Of a stretch of DNA of 57,376 nt, positions 29,035 to 57,376 are shown piece after piece (within the stretch, counting starts at the first letter, position 1; every line of letters starts with the position of its first letter). The notes under the pieces are model-generated. The model was not told the origin of the DNA and made no database searches. It saw nothing but the letters and a program-made list of their open reading frames with translations. Made by a program: the position numbers and the translations under genes. The DNA is from a virus (Duplodnaviria; Caudoviricetes), in IMG/VR virus record IMGVR_UViG_3300023197_000044, positions 1-57,376 of that record; one strand, written 5' to 3'.

Positions 29035-29035
29035 T

Positions 29036-38231: not shown

Positions 38232-38235
38232 CGAT

Positions 38236-41762: not shown

Positions 41763-41801
41763 CCGAGGCGCTTACCGGCGCCGTAGACCACACAGACAAC
41801 C

Positions 41802-42347: not shown

Positions 42348-42405
42348 TTCGATAGGGGCCTTACCGGGCTCCTCTCTCCTTCACCTCTAAGACCACAAGA
42401 CAACC

Positions 42406-43158
42406 ATGAGCAACGCAAAGCTATCCGCCTTCGAAGAGCGGATCGAGAATATCAAGCAGCGTCGGGGCGTTCTGCTGTTCGCGGATGCGAGCACGTATAT
42501 CACCCAGCGCGAGGAGATTACTGCCGTTGACGACGGAACGAACACCGTGGACGTTGCGGCGGACCTGAGCGGGCTTTCTGTCGGGGTCGGGGTGCCGATC
42601 ATCGACGCACCTACGGACCCGAATACGGGCACGTACACGCTCACAGACGCCACCTACGACGGCACCACGTACACCACACTTACTTTCGACGAGGCGCTTG
42701 GAGGCGCCACCGTAGAGGGCTACGTTGTTGATCCGCGCTTCGCCCTCAACACCGCTGGGATCGTCAAGGACACCAACATTGGCGGCGAGCCCAATCAGTT
42801 TGGGCCGGACAACCAGGGCCGAACCTTTACCAAGGGGTTCGACATCACCGGGCAGTTTGCCATGATGCAAACTGGAGCCCCGGAGCTTCAAAACCTTCCC
42901 GCGCTTGCGGAGCCTGCCGGAAACGGGCTCTACGTCGCCTTCGTCGACAACCCCTTTCCCGTGGCAGACCAGGGTGCCGGGGTTCAGTTCACGGACATCG
43001 CCTTGCAGGACAAGGTAGAGCTTCTGAACGCCGCCGTGAACCCGACCTTTGCGCTAGATTTCAGTCGGGAAGAGTCCGACATCTCCAGCGAGATCACGGG
43101 CTACGTTTCCGTCTCGGAGCTTGAAAAGATGTACTCCGCGCCCATTCTCATGGGCTAA
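42406..43158 (+). CDS. Tail tube-like protein, paralogue 3 with ~70-aa insertion
   Basis: Shares NIKQRRGV and GEPNQFGPDNQGRTFTKGFDIT...PILMG with paralogue 2. Confidence 0.62.
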   Translation: MSNAKLSAFEERIENIKQRRGVLLFADASTYITQREEITAVDDGTNTVDVAADLSGLSVGVGVPIIDAPTDPNTGTYTLTDATYDGTTYTTLTFDEALGGATVEGYVVDPRFALNTAGIVKDTNIGGEPNQFGPDNQGRTFTKGFDITGQFAMMQTGAPELQNLPALAEPAGNGLYVAFVDNPFPVADQGAGVQFTDIALQDKVELLNAAVNPTFALDFSREESDISSEITGYVSVSELEKMYSAPILMG

Positions 43159-43185
43159 TTCACACACACATAGACCCAGCGAGAT

Positions 43186-43662
43186 ATGCCAGTCAAGGAA
43201 TTTTCTGGCAACGCAACGGTCGAGATTAGGGATGGGCAGGGCACGACGCTTTCGTCGCACGCCCTGCCCTTTTCTGATGGGAGGATCGCTGCGAAGCCAA
43301 AGCGACCAGGCGGACTCCCTTTCAGGGAGCTTGTCGACGGGCGGCGCAAGGAGCGCCGTGCGGACGGCTTCTATCGAGACGTGGAGTTGGATTGGGCAGA
43401 GCTATCCATTGATGCACACGCGGTCCTCGTGGGCCTGATTGATGCCCTGCACCTCCGCGCAGACGCCGACGAGGTGTACTTTTGCCCGGAGAACCCGGTG
43501 CCTACCGGGGCCTGGGACGACGACTTCATTTGGAGGGTCGTGCCCGCAATCAGCGGGGGCGACATCGACCTGATTTATGAGGACCGGGTGCGGGCTCGCG
43601 GCGCATCCCTTACCCTGAAAGCACATGACGCAATAACCACCCTACCGGGTTGGTTCGAGTAG
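43186..43662 (+). CDS. Hypothetical tail-module protein
   Basis: Position within the tail operon. Confidence 0.6.
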   Translation: MPVKEFSGNATVEIRDGQGTTLSSHALPFSDGRIAAKPKRPGGLPFRELVDGRRKERRADGFYRDVELDWAELSIDAHAVLVGLIDALHLRADADEVYFCPENPVPTGAWDDDFIWRVVPAISGGDIDLIYEDRVRARGASLTLKAHDAITTLPGWFE

Positions 43663-43685
43663 CTTTTCACCCAAGGAGGACAACC

Positions 43686-44054
43686 ATGAGTTCATACCGA
43701 CGACCGAAGTACGATGAGCAGGGCAAAACCTTCACGCTCGTCAAGACATCTCAGCACAATCGCGCCAAGCTCCGGGAGTACATGGACGAGCGCAACGACA
43801 GGATGTTGGAGCGGGAGGAGGCCCTGGAAGAGCAGGCAAACGGCAACCTGGACGTGAAGCTGCCGGACCCGATCAACCAGTACGAGATGTATTGGGACTG
43901 GTTCGTGATGCTCACCGATGGCCCGCACGACGAGATCGACCGAGAGCACTTCGATGAAAAGCTCGGCGAGAAGGTACTGTCGGATTTCGTGCCGCAAGCC
44001 ACAAGGACTCTGCTCGTGCAGCAAGGACTTTTGCCGCCTCTGACAGCGATGTAA
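43686..44054 (+). CDS. Tail assembly chaperone (G), probably extended by a -1 frameshift to 44254 (GT)
   Basis: Directly upstream of the tape measure; the -1 frame is open 43958-44254. Confidence 0.7.
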   Translation: MSSYRRPKYDEQGKTFTLVKTSQHNRAKLREYMDERNDRMLEREEALEEQANGNLDVKLPDPINQYEMYWDWFVMLTDGPHDEIDREHFDEKLGEKVLSDFVPQATRTLLVQQGLLPPLTAM

Positions 44055-44253
44055 GCGACGACCTCCAGGAGCCCTCCTGGAGCGGGCACTTGAAGGACAT
44101 TATTGGCGAGCCCATGCGGTTCGTCACCTTGAGGCTTGCTGACTACGACCCCGCTCGCGCCGCAGAGATCGAGCGGGACTGCACTATCACTGAGATCGCC
44201 GAAGCTGCCATGGTGAAGCAGCACGACAATGACACCGAGGTTGAGTTAGACTA

Positions 44254-47200
44254 ATGGATAAAGATGCGGGACGAGAAGTAAGCATTCACTTAACGCTTGG
44301 TGACAGCGACTTCGCCGACCAGTTCAACAAGGTTATCGGGGGCCTCACCGACCAGTTGAACCAGTCTGGCAAGCAGTTCGCCTCGCACATGGCGTCGGCG
44401 GAAAAGTCTATCCGCCAATCCACTGAGGCCCTGTCAGACACGATCTCCGATGAGCCGGGTCGACAGGCCCGCTCTAAGGGGCCGAGTGCTGGGCCTGGGC
44501 GTGGGGTCAAGAACGCCGAGGGCTCCATGGCTCGCGCCAACAAGCTGATGCAGCAGATGGAGAAGCGGTCCATCGACGCCAGCGAGGGAGCTATGCGAAT
44601 GGGCACCGAATACGAGGAGGTCCAGAAGGTCGTGAATGACCTCGTGACCGCGACGGAGAAGTTGAAGGACGGGTCTCGCGTCACGCACGACTTGAAGGCG
44701 CAGAACCGGCTCCGCAAGCAGGCCGGGAAGACGATCAACCAACTCACCAAGAAGATCAAGGAGCTTGCCCGCACGGAGCAGATCAGCCGTGAGCAAGCCG
44801 AGCGAATGCTGGGGGACCTACGGGACGGAGCGGCCCGCTACTCCGACGAGCGCATCAAGGCAGAGAAGGCGATCCAGTCTGTCCAGCGCAAAAGCATGAC
44901 GGAGTTCCGTCGCCAAATGAAAAGCCGGATCGCCCTCGTCGACGCCCTGCCCGAGAAGCATGATCGCATCCGGGACCAGTTAGAGGCCGAGCGCAAGACG
45001 CTCGTGCAGAAGGTCGAGGCGAACGAGGACAACATTCAGGCTATCGAGCGCCTTGCCGAGGTGAAGAAGACGATTGGCAAGCTCGACAAGCAAGAGCAGA
45101 AGCGTAGACAGGCCCAGGCGAAGCTACGCCAGGAACGCGAGACCCAAAAGGCTGCGGGCTCGGAGATGGCGTTCGGGGTCAACATGAAGCAGCAGAAGAA
45201 GCGGGTTAAGCAGGAGCTTGATGAGATGAGGCAGATCATTGCAAGCAGGAACCCCTTCGAAGCCCTCAAGGACTCCTTCGGGGCCGGGGACAGCTTGAAG
45301 AAGCAGAAGGGGGAGCTTGAGGAGATATTCCGGCTCATGGACAAGGAGGGCGAAGAGGCCGCGAAGGGTCTAAAGCAGGCCCAGCAGCAAAAGCTCGCCA
45401 TGCTTGACGAGGAGATTGACCGCCTCATTCAGCGAGACCAGATCGGCGAGGCGACCGAGCAGGAGCAGATCAGGCTCAACGAGCTTGAGGAGCAGCGCCT
45501 TCGTACCCTGAAAAACATCGAAAACACCGAGGAACAGATTAAGCGAGAGAAGGCGGGGCAGACCGCTCGGCAGCAGGGGCAGGGCGCGGGCCGGAAGGCG
45601 GTTCGTCGCAGGATGCGCCAGGACGGCTCCTTTGCTCAGTACAACGCCTCTCTACAGATGTCGCGTCTTGTCCAGGACGCTCCCTTCGGGCTAATGGGCA
45701 TGATGAACAACATTGACATGGCGGTCGACTCCATGCAGAAGCTCCGCAAGCAGACGGAGAGCACCGGGCAGGCGATGAAGAAGCTGTTCTTCGGCAGCAC
45801 TGCCTCGACGATGCTGTGGATCAACGCCCTCACGGCGGCGACACTCATCCTTTCGAGGCACGTCGACATCGCGGGCCGATTCGAGCAGCAGTGGGAGGAC
45901 ACGAAGGCGGCAATCTTCGGCGCGGGAGACGCGATGGAAAACCTCAAGGAGCAGATTGACGAGGCTACGAAGTCGAACCTCGTAATCATGGACAACATCT
46001 CTGCGGAGAAGGCGAAGGGTACCCTGGAGGACGTGACTCAGAAGCTCCACGACTTGCGCATGGAGCGCCGTGAGTACGTGAAGGGGCCGGAGGTGCTTGG
46101 CGGGCCGAACATTCCGGGGACGGAGACCTGGGGTGTAGGCGGGATCAAGCAATACCTCTTCCCGGACGAGGATATGCAGGAGTTCAATGAGCAGATCAGC
46201 GAGATGGAGCAGTATGAGGAGCAGTTAGGCGAGTTTGTCGCCGAGGGCTTCGGGATGAAAGAGGCGTACGAGAGGTCCGCCGAGTTCGGTGTTCTCACTG
46301 TGAAGGAGCACGCCAAAGTGCTCGACGAGATTCAGAGTCACCAGTCCGAGATGGCAGACATCATGCTGCGCGGGCGAGACGGGGAAGAGGCGATCCCCTA
46401 CAAGAAAGACAAGATCCGGGCGCGGTACGAGGAGGAGACCCGTGAGATCGAGGCCCTGATGCAGAAGAGGGCGAAGCAGTTGCGGGCTGCGCGGGACGCC
46501 AATGCCGAGGAGGAGGCGAAGAGACTACAGAAAAATCTACTGCTGCTCACGGACAAGCTCGGTGGCCTGCCCGCTGCACGTGAGCGTGAGCTTGCCAATG
46601 TCGGCGAGGACGGGTCCGGTGACGACGACCCGGCTGATGGGCTCCGTGAACTGATCGACATGCGCCACGAGGTAAAGCGGCGCGAGATCGAGATTTCGGA
46701 GGAGGGCCTGGAGGAGAAGAAGCAAATCATCGACCACGAGTTGAAGGTCCAGAAGGTCGCCCTTGACAGGCGCTTAGAGGACTTCGAGGGTACAGTTACA
46801 CAGGAGGCCGAGTTTGCCGAGTTGATCGCAGAGCGCAAGGCCCAGGCCGAGGAGCAGGCCGAGAGGGACAAGACGGACGCCGTAGAGGAGCACGCCCGGA
46901 AGCGTCGGCAAATCCGCATGGAGAATGCCCAGGTCGAACTCGACCTCCAGAAGAAGCGCCTATCCCTGCAAGACGACACCAACCGGACTGCCATTGAGCG
47001 CTCCCGGCTCCAGATGAAGAGCAAGGTGCTCTCGATGAACGAGAAGATCGCCAAGGCTGAGGACGAGGGCTACACCGAACGCGCCGAGAATTTGCGTAAG
47101 ATCCGGGATCTACAGTCTCGCGTCCACGACCAGCGCGTTGCCGACATCCGGGCTCAGACTCAGGAGCGGGCGCGTCAGATGGAAGAGGAGATCAATTCGA

Positions 47201-48171
47201 TGGTCGACGGAGCCGAGCGCTATAGTCAGCGCATTGCCACCTTCCAGACCGGGATGTACCGGGGCGCCATTCAGGGCGAGGTGGAGCGCATCCAGATGGG
47301 ACGGGAGGAGGCGATCCGCTCTGCCAGGGACGAGTTCGGAAGCCGCATGTCGGAGATTGACGAAATGGAGAAGCAGGCCGAGGACACCTACGCGAACGAG
47401 CAGAAGTTCTACCAGCAGCGGCTCGCCCTCTACGAGTGGTTTCGAGAAGAGAAGGAGGCGATCAGGGAGGACTACGACGACCAGGAGGAGCAGGCAATCA
47501 AGGAGAGCCAGAGGGCATTTGCCAGCATGGTAGGTGGGCAACTGTCCAGCCGTCTCAGCGATGTGTCCAGTGGGCTGAATGATCTCCAGCGCGTGTTCGT
47601 CGCCAATCGCAAGAAGCACCTGATGGAGCAGGGCGTCGCGGAGGAGGAGGCCGCAGCGAGGGCCGAGGAGGCCGGTCGCAGGCGCTTCGCTATCAAGAAG
47701 AAAATCGCCATTGCAGAGGCGACGGTGAACACCTTCAATGCCGCGATGAACGCCTACAATCAGGCGTCGCAGTTTGGCGGGCTCGCTGGCGGGATCGCAG
47801 CCTTCACGACCGCACTCACATTCGGCTTCGCCCAGGTGGCTAAAATTCGGGCTATGGGAATCGAGAGTGCGGGCAAAAGCGGTGGTGGGGTCGACGCTTC
47901 GGGGTTAGGTTCCGGTACGGATGCAACGGGGTCCCAGGTGACAGATCCGAATAGCTCGTTCGCTCCGAGCGGCGCCGGAATGTCCACCAGCGGGAAGAGG
48001 CAGTCTGCTCAACAGGATAGCGTCGAAGGGCAGATCAAGGGGCTCCGGGGCGACATGGAGCGCCACACGGCGGCGATAGAGAATATGAAGCCCGAGGCTA
48101 CGATGAGCGACGATACCGCCATCGAGGCTGGGGAGAAATACTCCGACCACAAAAGCGAAGACACATACTAA
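44254..48171 (+). CDS. Tail tape measure protein
   Basis: 1305 aa, helical; LVQDAPFGLMGMMNNI and KKIAIAEATVNTF..A motifs. Confidence 0.92.
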   Translation: MDKDAGREVSIHLTLGDSDFADQFNKVIGGLTDQLNQSGKQFASHMASAEKSIRQSTEALSDTISDEPGRQARSKGPSAGPGRGVKNAEGSMARANKLMQQMEKRSIDASEGAMRMGTEYEEVQKVVNDLVTATEKLKDGSRVTHDLKAQNRLRKQAGKTINQLTKKIKELARTEQISREQAERMLGDLRDGAARYSDERIKAEKAIQSVQRKSMTEFRRQMKSRIALVDALPEKHDRIRDQLEAERKTLVQKVEANEDNIQAIERLAEVKKTIGKLDKQEQKRRQAQAKLRQERETQKAAGSEMAFGVNMKQQKKRVKQELDEMRQIIASRNPFEALKDSFGAGDSLKKQKGELEEIFRLMDKEGEEAAKGLKQAQQQKLAMLDEEIDRLIQRDQIGEATEQEQIRLNELEEQRLRTLKNIENTEEQIKREKAGQTARQQGQGAGRKAVRRRMRQDGSFAQYNASLQMSRLVQDAPFGLMGMMNNIDMAVDSMQKLRKQTESTGQAMKKLFFGSTASTMLWINALTAATLILSRHVDIAGRFEQQWEDTKAAIFGAGDAMENLKEQIDEATKSNLVIMDNISAEKAKGTLEDVTQKLHDLRMERREYVKGPEVLGGPNIPGTETWGVGGIKQYLFPDEDMQEFNEQISEMEQYEEQLGEFVAEGFGMKEAYERSAEFGVLTVKEHAKVLDEIQSHQSEMADIMLRGRDGEEAIPYKKDKIRARYEEETREIEALMQKRAKQLRAARDANAEEEAKRLQKNLLLLTDKLGGLPAARERELANVGEDGSGDDDPADGLRELIDMRHEVKRREIEISEEGLEEKKQIIDHELKVQKVALDRRLEDFEGTVTQEAEFAELIAERKAQAEEQAERDKTDAVEEHARKRRQIRMENAQVELDLQKKRLSLQDDTNRTAIERSRLQMKSKVLSMNEKIAKAEDEGYTERAENLRKIRDLQSRVHDQRVADIRAQTQERARQMEEEINSMVDGAERYSQRIATFQTGMYRGAIQGEVERIQMGREEAIRSARDEFGSRMSEIDEMEKQAEDTYANEQKFYQQRLALYEWFREEKEAIREDYDDQEEQAIKESQRAFASMVGGQLSSRLSDVSSGLNDLQRVFVANRKKHLMEQGVAEEEAAARAEEAGRRRFAIKKKIAIAEATVNTFNAAMNAYNQASQFGGLAGGIAAFTTALTFGFAQVAKIRAMGIESAGKSGGGVDASGLGSGTDATGSQVTDPNSSFAPSGAGMSTSGKRQSAQQDSVEGQIKGLRGDMERHTAAIENMKPEATMSDDTAIEAGEKYSDHKSEDTY

Positions 48172-51100
48172 TGGACGTATTCGTTAAGACGTATCGGATT
48201 GAAGGCGGCAATATCCAGGGTGGTAAGTCCATCCAGGAGGTGCCCCTTCTAGAGGTCTCCGAGTTTGGCGAGGTGAAGAAGTACCTCGAAGAGGAGGCTA
48301 CGGAGTTCCGCATGGACTCAATCAGCCTCAAGACGGAGTTTCTGCCGAAGAGCTTCTTCGCCGACTACACGCCCCAGACGCCCTACCTCGTCGAGGTACA
48401 GGTCGGGTCGGGGTGGGATGCCTCGGACAGCCGGTGCATCTTCTACGGCCCCATCAAGAAGAAGTCCATCAAGTACAACGAGCGCACTGGCGTCACCTCG
48501 TTCGAGGTCTCGTCTTGGGAGCGCTCTGTTAAGCAGGCCGGTAGCGTCGTCGCCCGCGAGCGGATTCCCGTGAAGGTCGCCAAGCAGTATGTGAGTGACG
48601 GGAGCAACGTCGGCCCCTTGGCGCAGTGGCTCGGCTTTGGCCCCAAGGTTCGCGTAGCGGGCGAGGACCCGGACATCCCGGATATAATCGAGCGCGGGAT
48701 GATTCTCAAAACTAAAGCGAAGCTCGGGGACAACACGATCCCGTTCCATTTTCTCTGTAACACCACCCTGACGGAGCCTGAGACAGATGGTGTCACGGCG
48801 GGCGGTCAGACGATCTATCAGTTTCCGGTCCTAAGCGGAAGCAGTGGCCTTTTCCGGGGCGAAGGCTCGACGGAGGACAGGGCGTATTTCCCCTTGAAGC
48901 ATACCGGGCCGGTCAAAAGGCATAACAACTTGGGGCAGCATGTCGGTTGGAATGATAAGTGGTTGATGAGCGAGAAGAAGATCGCCCTGCCGCTTTCGTC
49001 TTTCGACTCCGATGTCACCGAGTTGGTGGGGGCAGAGGTTGAGATCACCGTCGACGAGAGCGTCTACGGTGCCGGGGTGAAGACGACGAAGACGAAGGTG
49101 ACTAACGCCTTCGTGGCGCCCCTAATTGACGGCCCGAAGGGGGCAATAGCCAACTTGGATACCAGCGGTCTTGAGCGGGGTGAGTACGGGATATTGGTTT
49201 TCGAGGACAAGGTGGGCGGTAGTGTGCAGCGAGGGACCTTCGAGGTTCCCACCAACTACAGCGGGGACCCGATTGGGCTTCCCGACATGATTGGGGCAAC
49301 CTGGACGTACAACAAGCTTCTCACCGTTGAGCCCGGTACGGACGGCACCCTGCTCTCTTCGGAAGCCTATGGTCGAGAGGGCGGGTCAATGCAGCCGTAC
49401 GGGGCAGTGCCCCTCGCCGAGGGGGTTGCGACTCGAACCCCGGCACTCGCCGACCTCCTGGATGGGAGCCCCGTCGTTAAAGGGACACCCGGTAGCCTGA
49501 GCAGGCGAATCCAGTTTGACGAGGACCTTATCAAGGCGCTCGGAGACATTCAGCGCTCCGCAGAAGCGCACATATCGTTTCAGGCCCGGTCGCGTGACCT
49601 GGAAGGGGGTGAGCGCAAGGACGTTACAGACGCAAACAATAATAAGATCGGGGAGGGCGCTCGGCGGGTGAAGATGGTCGTTGCCACAAGGGATTACCAG
49701 GCCCAACAGCCGACCCTTGACCTCCCGGACGCAATCGAGTGGAAAGGGGAGGCCCTGGGCGCGAAGCCCGACGTTGTGGTCGTAGAGGGGCCTAAGATCA
49801 TAAATGCAAGCTCCGATCGGGACAAAGCCGTGGGGTGGTTCCCGAAGGACGCCATCGACGACCCTGATAGGGCTGATGAGGGCGGCAATGAAGTCGTGAA
49901 GATTGAGGCCCCTCTTATCGAGGCTTCGGTCGAGGGCAATGGGCTCACTGTGCCGGAAAATATCTCCTCGGTGGCGGGGAGGGCAGAGCGCTACTACAAC
50001 TTCTACTCGCAGTATTTCCGCGAGAAGGAGGTCGTCGTTGATGGCGTGTTCGATCAGGTTGCCGGTGGCGCATACGAGGACCCCGTGATTGGCTCTACCG
50101 TGTCGGAGGACGAGTCGGTATTCGAGACCGGGGTAGTCACGAGCCAGTCGGTCGACTACGGGAAAGAGGAGACGACCCTAAACGTCTTAGTGGCGACGAG
50201 CTACGTTGCCCCCACCAATGCGGACCCGGTGGCGCTCCTACAGGCCCCAAGTGCGCTCCAATCCAACGACGGAGCAGTCCCCATCACTCTGGACGCCACC
50301 TCCTCCTACGACCCCAACGGAGACCCCATCTCCTTTAGGTGGCTCAAGAACGGGAGTGTGATTACCGGCGAGACCGGGCGCTACCTTGAGACCGATGCGC
50401 AGGACGGGGATCAGTACGAGGTCGAGGTGAAGGACCCGGAAGGGGCAATCGACGTGGACACAGTGACGATCAATGTCTCTACCGCAACCACGGGGTCAAG
50501 CGGGGGCGAACCGTACCTTTCCGTCCGCCTCGACGAGGGCTCTACAACAGACACCACAGAGGTCTATGATGTCGAGTCGCAGAAGAGGGGCGGCGACCTG
50601 AAAGTCGAATACAAGGTTCTCAGGGGCGACGAACTACTCAGCGAGGGGGAGATCGGGACAGGAGGGCCGGAAGCGTCCGGCTCGATTTCCGTAGACCGGA
50701 ATAATAGGTTCCTGAAGACTATCACGGTCAAGTCTTACGACCAGACGGACGGCACTGTCGCCAGGGCCGTGAGGACTGTTGCGCCTGCCTCTGAGGCGTC
50801 TACGGGGACAACACTGGGCAACTTCTTTACCGCCAACGGGGACGCAATAGAAGACGAGTGGGCTGGATTCTACGTTGATCGGGGGCGCAGGGAGGACGGC
50901 ACCGGGTCCGGCCTAATTTCGAGAGCGGTGGCATGGAACCCAACTACAGATCGCTTTGGAGTTGCCGACCTCGACGCCGCTAATGGTGGAGGGGCTGTTG
51001 AGTCGACTTTCGAGCAGTTCGCCCTGGCAAGTGCAGACGAGACAATAGATGGATCATGGAAATTTGGTGCTCAGACAGAATTTCGCGCTGAGGCGGATTT

Positions 51101-53252
51101 TCTCACGAACGGGGCGAAGTTCAACAATCACATCATTTACTCGCCCGACACCACGTACGACGTACTGAACATGCGGCGGTACGGGAAGGACTTCACCCTA
51201 CTCAACATGATGGCTCCCCCGCAGACTTCATGGGGCGGGGCAAGGGAGTGTACGCTTGCCCTCGTTAGGGGTGACGGTAACGAATACTTCATGGACCTCT
51301 ACAACATGGACTATGGGGACTCCGATCAGGGTAATTACTTGGATTATGGGAATGCCAGGATGGGGTTGAGGCTCCAGAAAAGGGGAACGGGGGTCTACAC
51401 TCCGTTCTTCTTTGAATACAGTGACGGCACGCGGGGCGAAGAGATCGAGGCGATGGTGATGTACCCCCAGCAGTCAACGAACAGCACCAACGATACCAAG
51501 ATCGAGGTAGTCAACGAATTTGAGGTTGGCGGTACCGCTGTAATTGGTGAGCATATTGGCAGCCCCTCCTACACGAGCGGGATTCTTGGGGCAGGGTGGA
51601 GGGTGGATAATACCCCAGCGGAGGGGTCGTTCTTCGAGGTCGACAACATGCGTGTGCGTAATGAATTTCGCACGCACATTTTCAAGAAGGACATCGTGAA
51701 GGCGAGCAACGGCTACTTGCTCATTACCGACTCTGCGAAGGTTGCCGAAGGGAAGGCGATGTTCCAGGACGGGCAAACCCTTGATGTGGAGTCTGGAGAG
51801 GGCAATGCCAGCTTCTCGGTCAATGACCTTCTCTGGGTAAAGACGCTCGACGACGCCGGATCAACTGTCTACGAAATCAAGCTCACTGTAACGGCTGTAG
51901 ATGCCTCCCCAGGCGATAAGGACATCTTGACGGTCAACGTGCAGTCAGCGGGTGACGTGTACGAGGGCGATACCCTCGTTCGCGTGTCGGGCGGCTACTT
52001 GCTCAATGACGCAAGCAGCCAGTATGCCCCCTTCATTGACGTGTATGACGGAGTGAGTACGTGGTCTGACTTCCGGCACCCTAACAAGCTAAAGGCTCGG
52101 TACGGCAACCTGGAGGGGGTCAGTCACCCGACCATGAACCCAAGTGGGTACGGGCTCTATAGCGAGAATACCTACCTCGAAGGGGAGTTCGTAGCCGGTA
52201 GTGGGACCACGCACATCAAGTCCAACGGGGACCTCTACCTTGCAGATGGAGACATCACCTACAATGGCATAACCCTTGAGGTTAGCGCCAAAATCACGGC
52301 CCTGAGTGGTGACATCGCAGGATGGAGCATCACCCACAACAGCCTGGATAAGAGCTTCACCAACACAACGCTCAACCTTGGCACCCTTCCGAGTGCCAGT
52401 GACTACGGGTTCCGCGCAGCCTCATCCAGCGGTCGAGAGGTGTTCATGCGTGTAGATGAGAGTGCAGATCAGGCGGAAATTGGCGCGTACAAGGACTCCG
52501 CGAACCACGTGGCTATAGGCGAGGACTTTTGGGGGATAATGAACGGGGTTGGTGTGCGGATTCGGTCTGCGGGTACGGATGTGCTACAGGCAGACGAGGA
52601 TGGGTTGAAGGTCGACGCGCTCTTCACTGACGAAATTTTCTCCAATGAGGCCACTATCAGTGAGAGATTGACAATTGGCTCAACTGGAGAGATTACCAAT
52701 GGGGCGGGAGACTACACAATAGACAGCGATGGGATCGCTTTGAACACCGGCTCCGGCATTCTTGCCAGGGCAATAACCTGGAACGAGAGTGGCACTGAGA
52801 TTGCCCGCATTGCCGCCGACAATGGGAGCTACGTTCAGAGCGTCTATGGGGATGCGAACTCCAGCTACTCAGGGCAAACACTCCAGGCCCGCTCCGCGAA
52901 GGGGTCGACGGGTTCGTATAGTTACTGCGAGATTGCGATTAGCTACCGCCCGACAGGAAGCGACAGTATCCAATTAAATACGTCGGACTCAGATGGAGTC
53001 TACACCAATGACTCGCCAAGGGTGGAGATCGGTACTGTTCTTGGCGGGAATACCGATGTGATGCTCCAGTTCTTGCCGAACGAGAAGGTAATGAAGTTCC
53101 CGAACTATCGCACTTCTCACTACCCCTGGAGCGCACTCAATCAGGGAGAGGCCGTGCTGTACGTCATGAAAAAGGGGGACGGAGACATCGACCTAATGTG
53201 GCGAGAGAAGACAGACGATGGCAGTACGTACCAGACGAATCTTGGCTCGTAA
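48171..53252 (+). CDS. Large tail tip / central fibre protein with a PKD-like domain
   Basis: 1693 aa, beta-rich; NADPVA...ITLDATSSYDPNGDPISFRW; GYGLYSENTYLEG. Confidence 0.82.
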   Translation: MDVFVKTYRIEGGNIQGGKSIQEVPLLEVSEFGEVKKYLEEEATEFRMDSISLKTEFLPKSFFADYTPQTPYLVEVQVGSGWDASDSRCIFYGPIKKKSIKYNERTGVTSFEVSSWERSVKQAGSVVARERIPVKVAKQYVSDGSNVGPLAQWLGFGPKVRVAGEDPDIPDIIERGMILKTKAKLGDNTIPFHFLCNTTLTEPETDGVTAGGQTIYQFPVLSGSSGLFRGEGSTEDRAYFPLKHTGPVKRHNNLGQHVGWNDKWLMSEKKIALPLSSFDSDVTELVGAEVEITVDESVYGAGVKTTKTKVTNAFVAPLIDGPKGAIANLDTSGLERGEYGILVFEDKVGGSVQRGTFEVPTNYSGDPIGLPDMIGATWTYNKLLTVEPGTDGTLLSSEAYGREGGSMQPYGAVPLAEGVATRTPALADLLDGSPVVKGTPGSLSRRIQFDEDLIKALGDIQRSAEAHISFQARSRDLEGGERKDVTDANNNKIGEGARRVKMVVATRDYQAQQPTLDLPDAIEWKGEALGAKPDVVVVEGPKIINASSDRDKAVGWFPKDAIDDPDRADEGGNEVVKIEAPLIEASVEGNGLTVPENISSVAGRAERYYNFYSQYFREKEVVVDGVFDQVAGGAYEDPVIGSTVSEDESVFETGVVTSQSVDYGKEETTLNVLVATSYVAPTNADPVALLQAPSALQSNDGAVPITLDATSSYDPNGDPISFRWLKNGSVITGETGRYLETDAQDGDQYEVEVKDPEGAIDVDTVTINVSTATTGSSGGEPYLSVRLDEGSTTDTTEVYDVESQKRGGDLKVEYKVLRGDELLSEGEIGTGGPEASGSISVDRNNRFLKTITVKSYDQTDGTVARAVRTVAPASEASTGTTLGNFFTANGDAIEDEWAGFYVDRGRREDGTGSGLISRAVAWNPTTDRFGVADLDAANGGGAVESTFEQFALASADETIDGSWKFGAQTEFRAEADFLTNGAKFNNHIIYSPDTTYDVLNMRRYGKDFTLLNMMAPPQTSWGGARECTLALVRGDGNEYFMDLYNMDYGDSDQGNYLDYGNARMGLRLQKRGTGVYTPFFFEYSDGTRGEEIEAMVMYPQQSTNSTNDTKIEVVNEFEVGGTAVIGEHIGSPSYTSGILGAGWRVDNTPAEGSFFEVDNMRVRNEFRTHIFKKDIVKASNGYLLITDSAKVAEGKAMFQDGQTLDVESGEGNASFSVNDLLWVKTLDDAGSTVYEIKLTVTAVDASPGDKDILTVNVQSAGDVYEGDTLVRVSGGYLLNDASSQYAPFIDVYDGVSTWSDFRHPNKLKARYGNLEGVSHPTMNPSGYGLYSENTYLEGEFVAGSGTTHIKSNGDLYLADGDITYNGITLEVSAKITALSGDIAGWSITHNSLDKSFTNTTLNLGTLPSASDYGFRAASSSGREVFMRVDESADQAEIGAYKDSANHVAIGEDFWGIMNGVGVRIRSAGTDVLQADEDGLKVDALFTDEIFSNEATISERLTIGSTGEITNGAGDYTIDSDGIALNTGSGILARAITWNESGTEIARIAADNGSYVQSVYGDANSSYSGQTLQARSAKGSTGSYSYCEIAISYRPTGSDSIQLNTSDSDGVYTNDSPRVEIGTVLGGNTDVMLQFLPNEKVMKFPNYRTSHYPWSALNQGEAVLYVMKKGDGDIDLMWREKTDDGSTYQTNLGS

Positions 53253-53355
53253 CGTGAGGCACACCCGGTTGACGGCTGGGCCTGAGCCCCTATATTGGAG
53301 TACACTCTTACTCACCGGCCCTTACCGGGGCTTATTGCAAACAAAGGAGGCAACC

Positions 53356-53832
53356 ATGACAGATCAGCCAGAAGCACACACGCAGTCACCACGAGCGCCC
53401 CAGGACGCGCCGGAAGGCGAGGCAGGGGAGCAGGGCAACCCGAGCAACCGGGAGCTTATCCAGCGCTTCAACACACTCCAGGCCGTGAAGCCGTGCTTCA
53501 CTGTGCCGAAGATCAAGTACGCAATGACGAAGAACATGACTCGCATTGAACAGGCCCTCAAGCCGTTCCATCGGGCTGACGAGGAGCTTCGGGGTGAGTT
53601 CGGTATCTCGGGTCAGGAGCCCCTTCGTACCAAGGATGGAGAGCCCCGCGAGGGCATCGACCAGGAGTTCTACGACCGCCGCCAGGGCCTCCTCGGAGAA
53701 GAGGGCGACCCCTACGACGAGTACAATGTCTCAGATCGGTTCCTCGACAAAGAGGAGGGGCGTATGCGTGACGGAAGCAGGGGGCTTCCTGAGGGCGCCA
53801 TTTCGCCTATCATGTGGCTCTTCTCCGAATAA
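53356..53832 (+). CDS. Hypothetical protein (possible tail-fibre-associated)
   Basis: Hairpin and GGAGGCAACCATG define the start. Confidence 0.68.
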   Translation: MTDQPEAHTQSPRAPQDAPEGEAGEQGNPSNRELIQRFNTLQAVKPCFTVPKIKYAMTKNMTRIEQALKPFHRADEELRGEFGISGQEPLRTKDGEPREGIDQEFYDRRQGLLGEEGDPYDEYNVSDRFLDKEEGRMRDGSRGLPEGAISPIMWLFSE

Positions 53833-53943
53833 TGAGCACAGGTGTAAGCGGAACCCCTGGCGAGGACGTGCCCGATTGGGTACCTTGGGAGTGTAGTTGA
53901 TTGAGGGGCTTACCGGCCCCCATAATCCCAAGACAACCATGAC

Positions 53944-54564
53944 ATGCACCCCCTCTTTTTTGCCCTCCTGGGCACGTCCTGCCTTTGGGTTTTCGGCTAT
54001 TGGATATCACGTAGCCCGAGCCTGGAGGTTACTCGTTTCTTGTCCCCCATCGTCTCTCTTGGGCAGCACGCCCAGGTGAAAGGCACACTTTCCTTTCTTG
54101 CAATCGAGACGGGTTTTATTGACTCCCTGCTCACTTTCATGCAGGGAGTTTTTGAGGTAAGGGCCGAGGCCGCGTTTGCCCTGGGGCTCGTACTCCTGTT
54201 CGACTTTGCCTCCGGGGTCTACGCCTCGTGGTGGCGCAAGTCCGACGAGCTTGGGCGCCCCGCAGCCTTCAATCAGTTCTTGTCGTCGAGGCGACTGCGG
54301 GACTCGATCATCAAGATCGGGGAGTACCTGTCTGTCCTAATCCTCTTCACGGTCGCCGCTAACGTGTGGGAGGTGGAGCTTGGGTGGGCGAAGCGCTGGA
54401 CCTACCTGATGATCTTTCTAACGGAGTTCTGGAGCACCCGAGAGAACTTCCAGGACGTTCCGATCCGGGGTGTCATGGACCAGATGCGGCAACTCATCAA
54501 CAAGGGCACGGCAAAGGACATCTCAGTCGACTCACAAGGCCCCGGTGCCAATGACGATGAATAA
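53944..54564 (+). CDS. Holin (Phage_holin_4_1-like)
   Basis: Several TM segments; LFDFASGV...SRRLRDSIIK...TEFWSTREN. Confidence 0.82.
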   Translation: MHPLFFALLGTSCLWVFGYWISRSPSLEVTRFLSPIVSLGQHAQVKGTLSFLAIETGFIDSLLTFMQGVFEVRAEAAFALGLVLLFDFASGVYASWWRKSDELGRPAAFNQFLSSRRLRDSIIKIGEYLSVLILFTVAANVWEVELGWAKRWTYLMIFLTEFWSTRENFQDVPIRGVMDQMRQLINKGTAKDISVDSQGPGANDDE

Positions 54565-55162
54565 CAACATGCCCACGCGATCCGACAGCGGGGTCTCCTT
54601 CTTTCTAATCCTCGTTGTCCTCGCCCTGCTTCTATCCCTGCTGGCCTGTTCATCTACGGGCACCGAGCACGTTCGCATCGACCAGACGGACCGGAGGGAT
54701 GCGGTGCAGACCGAGGCCCCGGACACGGTAACCGTTGAGCGAGTCCGCACAGACACGCTCTGGATGCCGGGAATGACGCTCACGGTACCCGAGACTGTGG
54801 AGGTAGCGCGGGAGGAGCCGACCGCCAGGGATACGACCGATGCCTTCCCCCTGAAAGAGGTCGCCGTAGACAGCGCACAGGTACGCCTATCGGGCCTCAC
54901 TGAGCGGCACATCCTCGCTGCGCCGTGCCTCGGGCAGCGCCTCATTGGACGCTCGGTGCAAGGGGAGATGGAGTTCTACGTCGAAGGCGATTGCGTGGCG
55001 AGGGACACGACCATAGAATGTACCTACGAAAAGGAGTCGTGGATAGAGCGCACGACTGATAAGCTCGCCCGCTGGTTCAGCCTCGTAGCCCTGGTTGGCT
55101 TCGGCATGTACCTCTTGTGGGGCACGCTGGAGACCGCCATACGGGCGGCGCTTCCCTGGTAG
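54557..55162 (+). CDS. Lipoprotein with a C-terminal TM helix; u-spanin-like
   Basis: Lipobox LLA-C, then a C-terminal WFSLVALVGFGMYLLW; directly after the holin. Confidence 0.68.
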   Translation: MNNNMPTRSDSGVSFFLILVVLALLLSLLACSSTGTEHVRIDQTDRRDAVQTEAPDTVTVERVRTDTLWMPGMTLTVPETVEVAREEPTARDTTDAFPLKEVAVDSAQVRLSGLTERHILAAPCLGQRLIGRSVQGEMEFYVEGDCVARDTTIECTYEKESWIERTTDKLARWFSLVALVGFGMYLLWGTLETAIRAALPW

Positions 55163-55226
55163 CGAGCACGCGACGAACTCACTCTACGGGTGCTTACCGG
55201 CGCCCTACAACAACCAATAGACAACC

Positions 55227-56594
55227 ATGGATATCAGCTATCAGGAATTGCGCAACCGAATGGCGAATCAGTACCGCAGAAAGATTCTGGAGGACGGTTG
55301 GGGCCGTCACCGGATCGCCGACGACGCCTCGGCGAAGTACGGTTTCGGGGTGTCCCGGAAGCAGGCCCGCAAGGTAATCAACCGGGTCCGGGAAGAGGCC
55401 GACGCCCCGCCCGAGGTTGGCGACGTGGTAGAGGTTCACACCCCGGAGTCCGATGTGGACTACGAGAACGGCGAGGCGAGCACCGTATCGGCCCGCCCCA
55501 TGACGATGGACGAGGCTATCGAGCACCTGGGCATCAACGAAGAGGACTGGAGGATCATCCGTCCGAAGGTGGGCACGTACGAGGGGCAGTGCAAGGTGGA
55601 TGTGGTGACCGGCTACGACGCCGAGGACGAACCGATCACCGAGCAGGAGCACCGCGTCAAGACGATGTATAAGTTCGAGTTCGCCCTGGAGCGGCGCCAC
55701 CCTGCCGAGACTGAGGCATTCGCCGACAAGCTCCTCGAACAGGTCGCCGACGAGGCCCCGATCTACCGAGCCAACATCCAGCAGCCGAAGACGGGGAACC
55801 TGATGCGGCTGCACATCCCGGATCTCCACGTGGGCAAGGAGGGGTACCAAGCTGACTGGTCTCCCGACTCGGTCCGTGAGCGCGTCTTTCGCGTCCTCGA
55901 CGAGTTCGTTGCCCTGGCAGAGCAACACGGAGTGGACCGGATCTCCTGGCCCCTGGGGCACGACATCCTCCAGGTAGACCGCACCTTCGAGCAGGGCAGG
56001 GCGGGAGGAGGGGGTACCCTCAGCACCACGTCCAGCGGCACGCCGGTCACCTCGGCAATGCCGTGGATCGAACAGTTCCTCCTTGGCTGCGACCTCGCAG
56101 AGCAGATCGCCCGTCGCCTATTGGAGGTAGCGCCCCTGGACATCAACGTCGTTCCCGGCAACCACTCCGAGCAGTCCGAGATTGCCATTGGGCGCGTGAT
56201 GATCGCGGAGTTCAGGAATAGCCCGGACGTGCGGGTCAACCTCGACTCCAGCCGAGACAAATACTACGAGTGGGGCGTCAATGGCTTCATGGACACGCAT
56301 GGAGACACCGTGAGCTTCAAGAAGCTCGCTATGGCATTCGCCACCTCCAACGGAGAGCTTTGGGGCAAGAGCAAGTGGCGAGAGGTCAACGTGGGGCACA
56401 AGCACGTCACCAAGAAGCGCCCGGTGGGTATCCGAAGCAATGAGACAGGCGGGTGCTGCGTTTACATCTCGCCCTCACTGAGCCCACAGGACGAGTGGCA
56501 CGCGAAGTACCACTACCACGGAATGCCGGGTGCCCAGGCGTTTATGTACCACAAGGAGCGCGGCCCCTTTGCCAACTACGAGCGGTTCTTTTAG
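55227..56594 (+). CDS. Calcineurin-like metallophosphoesterase with an N-terminal extension
   Basis: DLHVGK, GHDIL, PGNH, HGD, GHKH motifs. Confidence 0.85.
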   Translation: MDISYQELRNRMANQYRRKILEDGWGRHRIADDASAKYGFGVSRKQARKVINRVREEADAPPEVGDVVEVHTPESDVDYENGEASTVSARPMTMDEAIEHLGINEEDWRIIRPKVGTYEGQCKVDVVTGYDAEDEPITEQEHRVKTMYKFEFALERRHPAETEAFADKLLEQVADEAPIYRANIQQPKTGNLMRLHIPDLHVGKEGYQADWSPDSVRERVFRVLDEFVALAEQHGVDRISWPLGHDILQVDRTFEQGRAGGGGTLSTTSSGTPVTSAMPWIEQFLLGCDLAEQIARRLLEVAPLDINVVPGNHSEQSEIAIGRVMIAEFRNSPDVRVNLDSSRDKYYEWGVNGFMDTHGDTVSFKKLAMAFATSNGELWGKSKWREVNVGHKHVTKKRPVGIRSNETGGCCVYISPSLSPQDEWHAKYHYHGMPGAQAFMYHKERGPFANYERFF

Positions 56595-56664
56595 TGCGGA
56601 TTGTGGGCTTAACCACCTATTCACCGGAATCTTGGGGTTGTGGCACAGGTCAGGCTTGAGAAGA

Positions 56665-56718
56665 ACTTGCAACTACGACCCGGTGACTTGCAACTACACC
56701 CCGACCATGTTATATAAA
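56665..56718 (+). promoter_or_regulatory. Predicted promoter of sRNA-A with an overlapping direct repeat
   Basis: TTGCAA (56688-56693), 17 nt, TATATA (56711-56716) with extended TG; ACTTGCAACTAC at 56665 and 56686. Confidence 0.65.
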
Positions 56719-56720
56719 TA

Positions 56721-56814
56721 TGCCTGCTTAGGCAAAACAAAGGCGGTTTTAGCATGGTTGTCTTCCCGCCTGATAGTGCCCGCATCGCCCCAACGGTGTG
56801 GGCATTTTCTATTT
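56721..56814 (+). ncRNA. Predicted sRNA-A, antisense to the phage-wide AAGACAACCATG start motif
   Basis: Hairpins TGCCT-GCTT-AGGCA and AGGCGG-[TTTTAGCATGGTTGTCTTC]-CCGCCT; terminator TGCCCGCATCG-CCCCAA-CGGTGTGGGCA-TTTTCTATTT. Confidence 0.7.
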
Positions 56815-56833
56815 GTGTGCAGCCTAAGCAAGC

Positions 56834-56958
56834 AAAGAAAAGGGCCGCAGCCGATACCTTCCCTGGCTACGACCCGAGCGGTATAGGGCCGTTGGCGCCG
56901 GTAGGCACCCTCTCATTTCTCTTCGGCCCTCTGGTTGTCTTCGCCGTCTACTTGTCTG
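56834..56958 (-). ncRNA. Predicted sRNA-B carrying the sense motif and the YUACCG hairpin (decoy-like)
   Basis: Minus strand CGGC-[GAAGACAACCAGAGG]-GCCG and GGTGC-CTACCG-GCGCC; terminator GGGTCGTAGCC/GGCTGCGGCCC-TTTTCTTT; TATATT at 56968-56963. Confidence 0.58.
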
Positions 56959-57136
56959 CGACAATATAGAGGATCTTAAACCGCATTGTACTCCAGCGGC
57001 GCGAGTTCACGTGGTCCTCTTAGTCTTCGGTCGCAGGCGCCCGCGCACGAGAGAGCCCTGCTCATGGGCAATATGGGAAAAGCATCTCGCACCAACTCCG
57101 ACTCAGCGCCCACAGACCCGGGTTTTCGCGTTTCCT

Positions 57137-57158
57137 ATGGGCAAATAATGGTAAAAAC
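57137..57158 (+). repeat. Putative integrase arm-type site, right copy
   Basis: Identical to 187-208. Confidence 0.7.
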
Positions 57159-57183
57159 AGGTTCATTTTCCGGGACGATCAAT

Positions 57184-57220
57184 AAAAAAAGCCCGCCCCC
57201 GGCAATTCGGGATCGGGCTT
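57184..57220 (-). terminator. Intrinsic terminator just inside the right att
   Basis: Minus strand AAGCCCGATCCCG-AATTGC-CGGGGGCGGGC followed by TTTTTTT. Confidence 0.75.
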
Positions 57221-57269
57221 GAGCGTTTCTGTGGGCTGATTGGTGGTTCTGAGGGGCGCCAGTGCATAC

Positions 57270-57320
57270 CCGACACACGGCTTTTCAGGCCGTTGCTCTA
57301 CCACCTGAGCTACCTGGCCC
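57270..57320 (-). repeat. att core, right copy: truncated tRNA-Phe 5' fragment lacking the T arm and 3' acceptor strand
   Basis: Identical to 77-127; the sequence diverges at the start of the T arm. Confidence 0.97.
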
Positions 57321-57376
57321 CAGCTGATTGCAGATCAGCGGTGGTGGGCACGCGGCCCACGCGTATCGAATGTAGG

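What the first reader, a model, noticed from the sequence alone, without database searches (positions are those of the whole stretch)
56834..56968. Convergent second sRNA displaying the sense motif in a loop: candidate RNA sponge / anti-repressor
Seen: directly facing sRNA-A is a minus-strand unit with a -10-like TATATT, the hairpin CGGC-GAAGACAACCAGAGG-GCCG, the hairpin GGUGC-CUACCG-GCGCC and its own terminator (G-U pairs valid only on the minus strand). It carries both regulon elements, but in reversed order and with no adjacent AUG. Its loop GAAGACAACCA is an 11-nt perfect complement of the sRNA-A loop. Inference: a loop-loop decoy that titrates sRNA-A, or the hairpin-binding protein, making a two-RNA lysis/lysogeny toggle.
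Basis: partly seen in the sequence, partly recalled or inferred. Interest (0 to 1): 0.88.

Follow-up and report, generated by a model that had tools for sequence, protein, structure and literature searches.

The report
Orphan gene-leader elements in small RNA unit
Beside a prophage's attachment site lies a short non-coding unit on the minus strand that carries, without any gene, the two signals that precede almost every gene of this phage, so it may act as a decoy RNA, but no transcript or function has been shown.

Summary
On the minus strand, 56968-56826 carries a rare AT-rich -10-like hexamer, a perfect 11-nt copy of a phage-wide start-associated motif (GAAGACAACCA) and a hairpin of the phage's leader-hairpin family (17.7 bits, E 0.028, with a model built without it). 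It ends in an 11-bp terminator stem with two U·G pairs and a U-run. Only the minus strand folds better than shuffles. Every small ORF here scores as non-coding.

The 11-nt "complementarity" to sRNA-A follows automatically from both loci carrying the same motif in the same DNA orientation. That motif has 27 copies against 0.78 expected. A's loop matches real gene starts better (12-14 nt), and whole A:B duplex energy is not above shuffles. Folding puts B's motif in a free 5' tail, not in the proposed CGGC/GCCG loop. In the one metagenomic contig that covers B, similarity stops at 56956, so the promoter segment is not conserved.

No RNA data and no retrievable relatives exist. My best reading is a small leader-mimic RNA, possibly a decoy (about 0.35). 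The main rival is a terminator/insulator region with leftover leader pieces (about 0.27). The robust result is the covarying hairpin-plus-motif leader system itself, an analogue of the SAS/ESAS repeats of Cluster K mycobacteriophages.

The parts
56963..56968 (-). -10-like hexamer TATATT; predicted start of B about 56956
   Evidence: Sequence. It is one of 16 TATA[AT][AT] hexamers outside the low-GC island. There is no good -35 (best is aGTACA at 18 nt, 3 of 6), and it is not listed by the promoter scans.
56932..56942 (-). Orphan copy of the start-associated motif GAAGACAACCA, with no adjacent AUG
   Evidence: Exact 11-mer. Predicted unpaired, probability 0.83. The next AUG is 16 nt downstream, against 0-8 nt at 26 gene-linked copies.
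56885..56930 (-). Stem AGGGCCG/CGGCCCU enclosing the leader-family hairpin
   Evidence: Minimum-energy and centroid folds.
56894..56909 (-). Leader-family hairpin GGUGC-CUACCG-GCGCC (UACC loop closed by C-G)
   Evidence: Scores 17.7 bits, E 0.028, minus strand only, with model R1 built from 23 other hairpins. It has a U·G pair specific to the minus strand. It is 16 of 17 identical to the exonuclease-leader hairpin 55188-55204 in inverted orientation.
56826..56875 (-). Intrinsic-terminator-like hairpin (11 bp, two U·G pairs, 12-nt loop) plus U-run UUUUCUUUGCUUGCUU
   Evidence: Fold. Not listed by the simple scans because its loop exceeds 8 nt.
56665..56816 (+). Facing unit 'A': two 18-nt direct repeats, TTGCAA-17-TATATA, a 5' hairpin, a hairpin showing the antisense motif CAUGGUUGUCUUC in its loop, and a 13-bp terminator
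   Evidence: z -4.0, 0 of 200 shuffles; strongest terminator-like site in 37400-57376. The minus strand of the same stretch reaches only z -1.66.
56957..57064 (.). Variable segment between the A/B block and the attP arm sites
   Evidence: One contig of run X4 joins 56956 to 57065 after matching 56719-56956 with 15 differences (tables 5 and 8).
57137..57158 (+). Arm-type repeat ATGGGCAAATAATGGTAAAAAC, identical to 187-208; a degenerate copy lies at 57064-57083
   Evidence: 22 of 22 identity; sequence.
57189..57220 (-). Minus-strand terminator after the tRNA-Phe fragment; in the circular phage it lies downstream of int
   Evidence: (I4).
57268..57320 (-). 5' fragment of tRNA-Phe (att core copy); the intact tRNA-Phe is at 52-126
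   Evidence: tRNA model 28.4 bits, just under the gathering score of 29.

Best explanation
B is a small non-coding unit on the minus strand, about 120 nt long (roughly 56956 to 56834), in the attP-proximal arm of a tRNA-Phe-integrated prophage. It carries gene-less copies of the two RNA signals that precede nearly every gene of this phage. The first signal is a GC hairpin with a UACC loop closed by U·G or C-G. The second is the A/C-rich motif (A)AGACAACC, which normally abuts the AUG.

The most likely mode of action is leader mimicry. B would offer the same two elements as the roughly 30 to 40 phage mRNA leaders. It would therefore compete for whatever reads those elements. That could be the facing + strand RNA 'A', whose loop is antisense to motif plus AUG. 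It could also be a hairpin-binding factor or the initiating ribosome.

Shown: the elements, their family membership, their minus-strand (RNA-level) specificity, and the absence of coding signal. Inferred: that B is transcribed from its own promoter, that it ends at its terminator, and that it titrates anything.
For: **The leader system is real and acts in RNA**
- There are 30 exact AGACAACC copies. 26 lie 0-8 nt before the AUG of a scored gene, one lies 33 nt before, and 3 have no gene (21576, 56763, 56940).
- There are 24 hairpins with a YUACCG loop, all in the sense of the local genes, with 114 Watson-Crick pairs, 9 G·U and 0 A·C.
- Over 23 of them (B left out), 94.9% of cells are paired and 5 of 6 pairs show changes on both sides. 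The covariation score is 0.648 against 0.208 in shuffles (0 of 500) and at most 0.196 when the partners are slid.

**B belongs to that system, on the minus strand**
- The hairpin scores 17.7 bits, E 0.028, with no + strand hit there.
- The motif is a perfect 11-mer.
- Fold asymmetry favours the minus strand: z -1.9 against +0.63.
- The terminator stem has two U·G pairs that only work on the minus strand.

**B has the layout of a small gene**
- A rare TATATT lies 20 nt upstream of the 11-mer.
- The motif sits in a free 5' tail, followed by a structured body and then a terminator.

**B is not coding**
- Real genes score +0.55 +/- 0.23 per codon, with GC3 0.78.
- The 30-codon ORF scores -0.48, the 46-codon ORF -0.73 and the 71-codon + strand ORF -0.085.
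- The 71-aa ORF found only itself among 5.8 billion proteins.
- No gene is scored anywhere in 56595-57376.

**Analogue elsewhere**
- In mycobacteriophage Anaya the single opposite-orientation SAS sits in the loop of a 6-bp GC hairpin in a 385-nt gene-free gap.
- This shows that gene-less copies of start-associated repeats displayed in hairpins recur in an unrelated phage.
Against: - No transcript evidence of any kind is available.
- There is no -35, and neither promoter scan lists a site for B.
- B's elements are in the opposite order to real leaders (motif then hairpin, against hairpin then motif at 2-28 nt). A factor that reads both in register would not be mimicked.
- The 11-nt match to A is weaker than A's match to true gene starts (12-14 nt). 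The overall A:B duplex energy is not exceptional (90 of 300 shuffles as good).
- An unpaired motif is the norm, not a special display.
- In the one contig that covers B (run X4, 56719-56956) there are 15 differences in 238 nt (6.3%). That is at least as many as in six of the seven listed coding pieces of the same run (0.7-5.1%; the seventh, a more distant strain, differs by 17%). Similarity breaks at 56956, so the promoter segment is not shared. The positions of the 15 differences were not shown to me.
- The B hairpin is 16 of 17 identical to the exonuclease-leader hairpin, so it could be a recent duplicate with no function of its own.
Confidence: 0.35

Rival explanations
1. Terminator/insulator region with leftover leader pieces. 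In the circular phage, the late + operon (ending with the exonuclease gene) and the early minus operon (ending with int, then attP) converge here. A's and B's terminators only stop the two polymerase streams. On this reading B's motif and hairpin are remnants or recent duplicates of a gene leader with no function of their own.
For: The geometry fits: int at 376-1605(-), the att core, the terminator at 57220-57189(-), then B. A's terminator is the strongest terminator-like site in 37400-57376 and lies 180 nt after the exonuclease stop codon. The B hairpin is 16 of 17 identical to the neighbouring exonuclease-leader hairpin. B has no -35. Divergence in the X4 contig is not lower than in six of the seven listed coding pieces of that run.
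Against: A decaying remnant would not be expected to keep a perfect 11-mer, an intact hairpin that still scores E 0.028, and a rare -10 hexamer in register. The reversed order of motif and hairpin needs two half-lost leaders rather than one. The terminator at 57220-57189 already serves the minus-strand stream.
Confidence: 0.27
2. A sib-like retroregulator. In the non-integrated phage, B lies on the int transcript beyond attP, and its structures or leader elements control int mRNA fate. In the prophage it is separated from int.
For: B lies across the att core from int on the same strand. It has structured hairpins specific to the minus strand. The lambda sib parallel is recalled, not looked up.
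Against: A good terminator (57220-57189) lies between attP and B. B's stems are short (5-11 bp), unlike a long RNase III substrate. B has its own -10-like hexamer.
Confidence: 0.08
3. DNA-level protein sites. The asymmetric motif would be a binding site for a phage repressor, in the manner of the L5 'stoperators'. The two copies 177 bp apart near attP would then regulate A's promoter or local transcription, with no need for a B RNA.
For: There are 27 oriented copies whose orientation follows the direction of transcription. The two exact copies are in direct orientation. Pope et al. contrast SAS with stoperators in these terms (PMC3203893, section 15 read).
Against: The motif is locked to the AUG: 16 of 30 exact copies abut a gene's AUG directly and 10 more lie within 3-8 nt. 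Conservation decays away from the AUG (degenerate forms keep ...AACC-AUG). The partner hairpins show sense-strand G·U pairs and covariation, which means RNA.
Confidence: 0.08
4. mRNA for a short peptide: the 30-codon ORF 56916-56827, or a leader for the 44-codon ORF that starts at the motif-AUG at 56757.
For: ATGs exist. The copy at 56763 has the canonical AGACAACC-AUG.
Against: Codon log-odds are -0.48 (30 codons) and -0.68 (44 codons), against +0.55 for real genes and +0.34 for a control 44-codon gene at 22400. The 16-nt spacing lies outside the 0-8 nt range. The hairpin lies inside the 30-codon ORF, and terminator-like hairpins lie inside the 44-codon ORF.
Confidence: 0.06
5. Part of a + strand protein gene: the 71-aa ORF 56754-56969, which a gene caller did call on this contig.
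For: The ORF is open, and both motif copies fall in its frame (177 = 59 x 3). It is on record as a called protein, P0020.
Against: It has no homologue but itself. Its codon score is -0.085, below the 5th percentile of real 45-codon windows (0.17). It contains a 13-bp terminator hairpin and has no leader module. The structures in B favour the minus strand.
Confidence: 0.03

Closest known systems
[quoted passage not shown] 2011, PMC3203893, section 15 read; PMC12699233, passages read)
   Same: A short asymmetric repeat, specific to the phage, sits within a few nucleotides of many ATG starts in one orientation. An inverted-repeat element lies just upstream of about half of them. A few copies are not tied to a gene start, including a single copy in the opposite orientation. 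The function was still unverified in 2025. In Anaya the opposite-orientation copy lies in the loop of a GC hairpin in a gene-free gap.
   Different: The sequences are unrelated: GGGATAGGAGCCC, with a Shine-Dalgarno core, against A/C-rich AAGACAACC with none. SAS is limited to the non-structural half of the genome, while this motif occurs in both arms. ESAS is a 17-bp inverted repeat with a conserved sequence, while this system has a short stem of free sequence with a conserved UACC loop and clear covariation. The host is different, and no facing sense/antisense pair next to attP has been described there.
Prophage-encoded anti-sRNAs/sponges such as AgvB and AsxR of EHEC, and other sponges (SroC, 3'ETS-leuZ). 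Recalled; only a search listing was seen
   Same: The concept matches: a small RNA carrying a mimic of an mRNA target site, which titrates a regulator RNA.
   Different: Those sponges act on host Hfq-dependent sRNAs. Here the supposed partner (A) and all its targets would be phage-encoded. Nothing has been shown experimentally.
RNA-based immunity of P4 (CI RNA with seqA/seqB/seqC) and P1/P7 (c4 antisense RNA). Recalled, not looked up
   Same: A temperate-phage small RNA whose loop pairs with short repeated sequences on phage transcripts.
   Different: Those systems have two or three target sites in one operon and cause termination or block a single gene. Here the target-like motif sits at about 30 to 40 gene starts.
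L5 'stoperators' (mentioned in PMC3203893; details recalled)
   Same: Many oriented asymmetric sites spread through the genome.
   Different: Stoperators are DNA sites for the repressor and are not locked to the start codon. Here there is tight AUG coupling and an RNA-level partner hairpin.
Lambda sib retroregulation of int (recalled)
   Same: An element placed across attP from int on the same strand, and separated from it by integration.
   Different: No long RNase III-type stem is present, and a terminator intervenes.

Membership tests
This phage's leader-hairpin family (model R1) | GC stem of 4-7 bp closing a UACC loop through a U·G or C-G pair, on the sense strand | tested here: met
   17.7 bits, E 0.028, minus strand, with B excluded from the training set. 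It ranks third among hits outside the training set. It has one U·G pair in the stem.
This phage's leader-hairpin family (model R1) | Lies 2-28 nt upstream of the motif and AUG of a gene | tested here: not met
   19 of 24 canonical hairpins have the motif 2-24 nt downstream, and 3 more have a degenerate motif plus AUG. One lies inside a called ORF. B has its motif 22 nt upstream, and the next motif 130 nt downstream has no scored gene.
Start-associated motif of this phage | Sequence (A)AGACAACC in the sense orientation | tested here: met
   Perfect 11-mer.
Start-associated motif of this phage | AUG of a real gene within 0-8 nt | tested here: not met
   The next AUG is 16 nt away, and its ORF has a non-coding codon score.
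Independent small RNA gene | Promoter | tested here: inconclusive
   A rare TATATT is present, but there is no -35 and no hit in the promoter scans. The segment is not shared by the X4 contig.
Independent small RNA gene | Intrinsic terminator on its own strand | tested here: met
   11-bp stem with two U·G pairs plus a U-run in the minus-strand fold. It is missed by the simple scan because its loop is 12 nt.
Independent small RNA gene | A detectable transcript | not testable with these tools
   No RNA run holds the stretch.
RNA sponge / anti-sRNA | Complementarity to the active region of a partner sRNA | tested here: inconclusive
   There are 11 contiguous nt to A's loop. This is the generic motif, it is shorter than A's matches to real starts, and the whole-RNA duplex is not above shuffles.
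RNA sponge / anti-sRNA | Titration of the partner in vivo | not testable with these tools
   Needs experiments.
Any Rfam family | Hit at the gathering score | tested here: not met
   The only hits are tRNA matches in the window. In 56550-57376 the matches outside the tRNA fragment are chance-level (E 0.24 and 8.3).
Protein-coding gene (71-aa ORF on +; 30-, 44- and 46-codon ORFs on -) | Codon usage of the phage's genes, and homologues | tested here: not met
Cluster K SAS/ESAS | Consensus GGGATAGGAGCCC and 17-bp inverted repeats | tested here: not met
   The sequence and structure are different. This is an analogue, not a member.

The most novel reading that the evidence does not exclude
A and B form a two-RNA switch that acts on a whole phage genome at once. 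A would be a global antisense repressor whose loop pairs with the shared motif plus AUG of about 30 to 40 phage mRNAs and keeps stray transcripts untranslated in the lysogen. B would be a leader-mimic decoy that releases them. The single opposite-orientation SAS in a hairpin loop of Cluster K mycobacteriophages would be the same principle. That would give the SAS repeats, unexplained since 2011, a testable function.
Probability: 0.12. Interest if true: 0.9.

Novelty: new variant of a known kind. Interest (0 to 1): 0.52.

Why it matters
Phage-wide start-associated repeats have been known since 2011 in Cluster K mycobacteriophages, without a mechanism. This prophage is probably from a halophilic host that lacks Shine-Dalgarno-type leaders. 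It has an independent and cleaner version: a covarying RNA hairpin plus a motif locked to the AUG.

It also carries two gene-less copies of the motif in facing sRNA-like units beside attP. One shows the antisense of the motif and the other the sense. If these are RNAs that talk to the leaders, one small RNA pair could gate translation of a whole phage genome. If they are not, the locus is still a well-defined example of convergent terminators at a prophage end. Either way the leader system is a ready target for experiments on translation initiation without Shine-Dalgarno pairing.

Tried and rejected
**Search for relatives (nothing usable).**
- The exonuclease protein and an alignment of 13 homologues (A1) were run against genome contigs, viral contigs and metagenome contigs. 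No confirmed locus came back.
- The major capsid protein was run against viral contigs, with no locus.
- The hairpin-loop-plus-motif pattern in viral contigs gave 17 loci with one match each. By my own rough estimate that is no more than chance, and no locus had a second motif copy.
- The two-copy pattern at the A/B spacing gave 3 unrelated loci with 28-45% GC.
- The arm-site 20-mer gave 0 loci.
- blastn against phages matched only a tRNA-like stretch.
- tblastn gave distant hits only: exonuclease at most 30% identity, portal 27.6% to Salinibacter phages.
- Salinibacter phage M8CC-19 does not share the motif (0 and 2 copies on the two strands), although its leaders are also A/C-rich without Shine-Dalgarno sequences.

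**Protein homologues.** Homologues of the exonuclease exist in the protein collection (19 with E <= 0.001, down to 34% identity), but their contigs could not be fetched.

**Sequencing runs.** No RNA holder is listed. Contigs of four DNA runs (two studies) were laid. Cover over 56796-57233 is thin, and the table of differences was cut (341 rows not shown). Because of that, the 15 differences in the X4 contig could not be placed on the structures.

**Rfam.** Nothing was found for A or B.

**Ideas rejected.**
- The shared 'GA' flank of the two arm copies as a sign of co-selection. By my hand count, 5 of 28 gene-linked copies also have it, so it is not significant.
- 'Loop display' as something special. 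The motif is unpaired almost everywhere.
- The 13-nt inverted repeat 56721-56733 / 56822-56834 (I2) as part of either RNA. It lies beyond both terminators' U-runs, so it remains unexplained.

**Candidate trans-factor.** The only lead is an 87-aa WYL_2/Sm-like protein, which was not followed further.

**Supplementary files.** The supplements of the two papers were not seen. Figures S3 and S4 of PMC3203893 may bear on the opposite-orientation SAS sites.

Full report
**Setting.** The window is a 57.4-kb viral record, and the 'genome' held for it is the window itself. It is a prophage bounded by an intact tRNA-Phe (52-126, minus) and a copy of the first ~52 nt of that tRNA (57268-57320, minus). 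A tyrosine integrase lies at the left end (376-1605, minus). The portal, protease and capsid are Mu-like. The last + strand gene is an exonuclease (55227-56594). GC content is 58%.

A 22-nt repeat flanks the att core on both sides (187-208 and 57137-57158, 22 of 22 identical), as arm-type integrase sites would. The stretch 56595-57267 holds no ORF with the codon usage of the phage's genes. The finding lies in this non-coding arm.

**The phage-wide leader system.** The motif TGGTTGTCTTC (up to 1 mismatch) occurs 27 times against 0.78 expected (0 of 100 shuffles reach 27). Read in the sense of the genes it is (A)AGACAACC. Of 30 exact AGACAACC copies:
- 16 abut a gene's AUG directly.
- 10 lie 3-8 nt before it.
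- One lies 33 nt before.
- 3 have no gene: 21576, 56763 and 56940.

Upstream of most motif copies lies a GC hairpin with the loop YUACCG. There are 24 canonical copies, all in the sense of the local genes. 19 have the motif 2-24 nt downstream, and 3 have a degenerate motif plus AUG.

The stems differ in sequence but keep pairing. Over 23 hairpins (B left out), 94.9% of cells pair and 5 of 6 pairs show changes on both sides. The covariation score is 0.648 against 0.208 in shuffles (0 of 500) and at most 0.196 with slid partners. The loop-closing pair is U·G in 21 hairpins and C-G in 2. Stems hold 9 G·U and 0 A·C pairs. These points place the structure in the sense-strand RNA.

The motif is predicted unpaired nearly everywhere (median 0.80). 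Leaders of a Salinibacter phage, the nearest cultured relatives by portal protein (27.6% identity), are also A/C-rich without Shine-Dalgarno sequences, but they do not carry this motif. I read the system as a stereotyped translation-initiation leader. It is an analogue of the SAS/ESAS repeats of Cluster K mycobacteriophages, whose function is still open.

**Checking the observation.**
- The -10-like TATATT is one of only 16 TATA[AT][AT] hexamers outside the low-GC island.
- The hairpin at 56909-56894 is a significant hit to a model built without it (17.7 bits, E 0.028, minus strand only).
- The terminator stem (11 bp, two U·G pairs) with its U-run appears in the minus-strand fold.
- The minus strand of 56826-56962 folds better than shuffles (z -1.9) and the plus strand does not (z +0.63).
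- One detail differs. The proposed CGGC/GCCG hairpin is not predicted. Instead AGGGCCG pairs with CGGCCCU around the family hairpin, which leaves the motif in a free 5' tail.

**What weakens the sponge reading.**
- The 11-nt complementarity between A's loop and B is the same fact as the direct repeat of the motif on the + strand, so it is not independent evidence.
- A's loop (CAUGGUUGUCUUC) matches true gene starts over 12-14 nt.
- Full-length A:B duplex energy is matched or beaten by 90 of 300 shuffles.
- B has no -35 and is not listed by the promoter scans. The best site in that 20 kb, TTGACG-16-TATATT at 53269-53296, sits ahead of a normal leader.
- In the only contig that covers B (run X4), similarity runs from 56719 to 56956 with 15 differences (6.3%), then jumps to 57065. 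So the promoter segment is not shared. The block is no more conserved than six of the seven listed coding pieces of that run (0.7-5.1%). I could not see where the 15 differences fall.
- B's order of elements is the reverse of real leaders.
- Its hairpin is 16 of 17 identical to that of the neighbouring exonuclease leader, which fits a recent duplication.

**What supports a functional minus-strand RNA.** The hairpin family acts in RNA and on the sense strand. Of the 27 model hits at E <= 0.05, I checked the three non-training ones other than B and each lies ahead of a gene on its own strand. One training hairpin (14013) lies inside a called ORF. B has neither a gene nor an ORF around it. So B's copy implies that the minus strand is read here.

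A perfect motif, an intact hairpin, a rare -10 hexamer and a strand-specific terminator fall within 135 nt, in the right order for a small gene. That is hard to get from decay alone.

The facing unit A is well supported as a + strand structure: z -4.0, a 13-bp terminator with G·U pairs, and the strongest terminator-like site in 37400-57376. The same terminator could equally serve the late operon.

**Geometry.** In the circular phage the minus-strand early operon ends with int, crosses attP, and meets the terminator at 57220-57189 and then B. The + strand late operon ends with the exonuclease gene and then A. The simplest rival is therefore a pair of convergent terminators with leftover leader pieces. 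A sib-like role for B is also conceivable. A DNA-site ('stoperator'-like) reading is disfavoured by the tight coupling to the AUG and by the RNA-level hairpins.

**Cross-system lead.** Pope et al. report a single opposite-orientation SAS in four Cluster K1 phages. In Anaya I located it in the 385-nt gap between gp96 and gp97. On the transcribed strand it forms the loop of a 6-bp GC hairpin, GCGCGG-CCUCCUAUCC-CCGCGC. This is the layout of unit A here. It bears on A rather than on B, and it is only a sequence observation.

**Verdict.**
- Observation: confirmed.
- Interpretation: partly supported.
- Best reading (0.35): a small leader-mimic RNA that may act as a decoy.
- Main rival (0.27): a terminator/insulator region with remnants.
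- The specific A:B sponge and lysis/lysogeny toggle: about 0.12.
- Novelty: a new variant of known kinds (start-associated repeats; phage sponge and antisense RNAs).

Noticed in passing
L022 39871-39883 (Mycobacterium phage Anaya, record 59870-59882): The single opposite-orientation SAS lies in a 385-nt gene-free gap. On the transcribed strand it is the 10-nt loop of a 6-bp GC hairpin (GCGCGG...CCGCGC). This is the same layout as unit A of this window.
   Followed up: partly
window 21420-22260 (minus sense): About 850 nt has no ORF with coding statistics. It holds a third orphan motif copy at 21576 with no AUG, followed directly by GC hairpins. This may be another non-coding RNA or an origin region.
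   Followed up: partly
window 56665-56703: Two 18-nt direct repeats (ACTTGCAACTACGACCCG and ACTTGCAACTACACCCCG), 21 nt apart, overlap the -35 of unit A. They look like operator sites.
   Followed up: no
window 56721-56733 and 56822-56834: A 13-nt inverted repeat (12 of 13 complementary) brackets unit A and lies beyond both terminators' U-runs. It forms in the folds of either strand. Unexplained.
   Followed up: partly
window 187-208, 57137-57158, 57064-57083, 178-193: These look like arm-type repeats flanking the att core, plus a 16-bp palindrome TTTGCCCATGGGCAAA at the left arm. The att core is the 5' part of tRNA-Phe, so the intact tRNA has phage DNA upstream of it.
   Followed up: partly
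window 22707-22722: A perfect 16-bp palindrome GTACGTATATACGTAC lies in the divergent region between the minus and plus gene arrays. It is probably the main operator of the switch.
   Followed up: no
window 27736-34120: A low-GC island without leader modules encodes a DNA methylase, an SNase-like nuclease and an AAA_13 ATPase. It is probably an acquired defence cassette.
   Followed up: partly
window 15183-15446 (-): An 87-aa protein has a WYL_2 Sm-like domain (27.3 bits, cut-off 26.7). It is a candidate nucleic-acid binder for the leader hairpins.
   Followed up: no
window 14146-14220 and 11600-11666 (-): The phage carries a tRNA-Arg(CCU), and a second weak tRNA-like hit lies exactly at the gathering score.
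   Followed up: no
window 18877-19464 (-): An ArdA antirestriction protein lies in the early arm.
   Followed up: no
L018 4098-4288, L019 1597-1791: Two unrelated IMG/VR contigs (44-45% GC) have arrays of TGGTTGTCTT alternating with a second 10-11-nt repeat at a period of about 37 nt. They look like iterons and share the motif only by coincidence.
   Followed up: no
L021 (Salinibacter phage M8CC-19): Many gene starts are preceded by a recurrent CTAATCATAAC-like element in A/C-rich leaders. This is another phage-specific upstream repeat.
   Followed up: no
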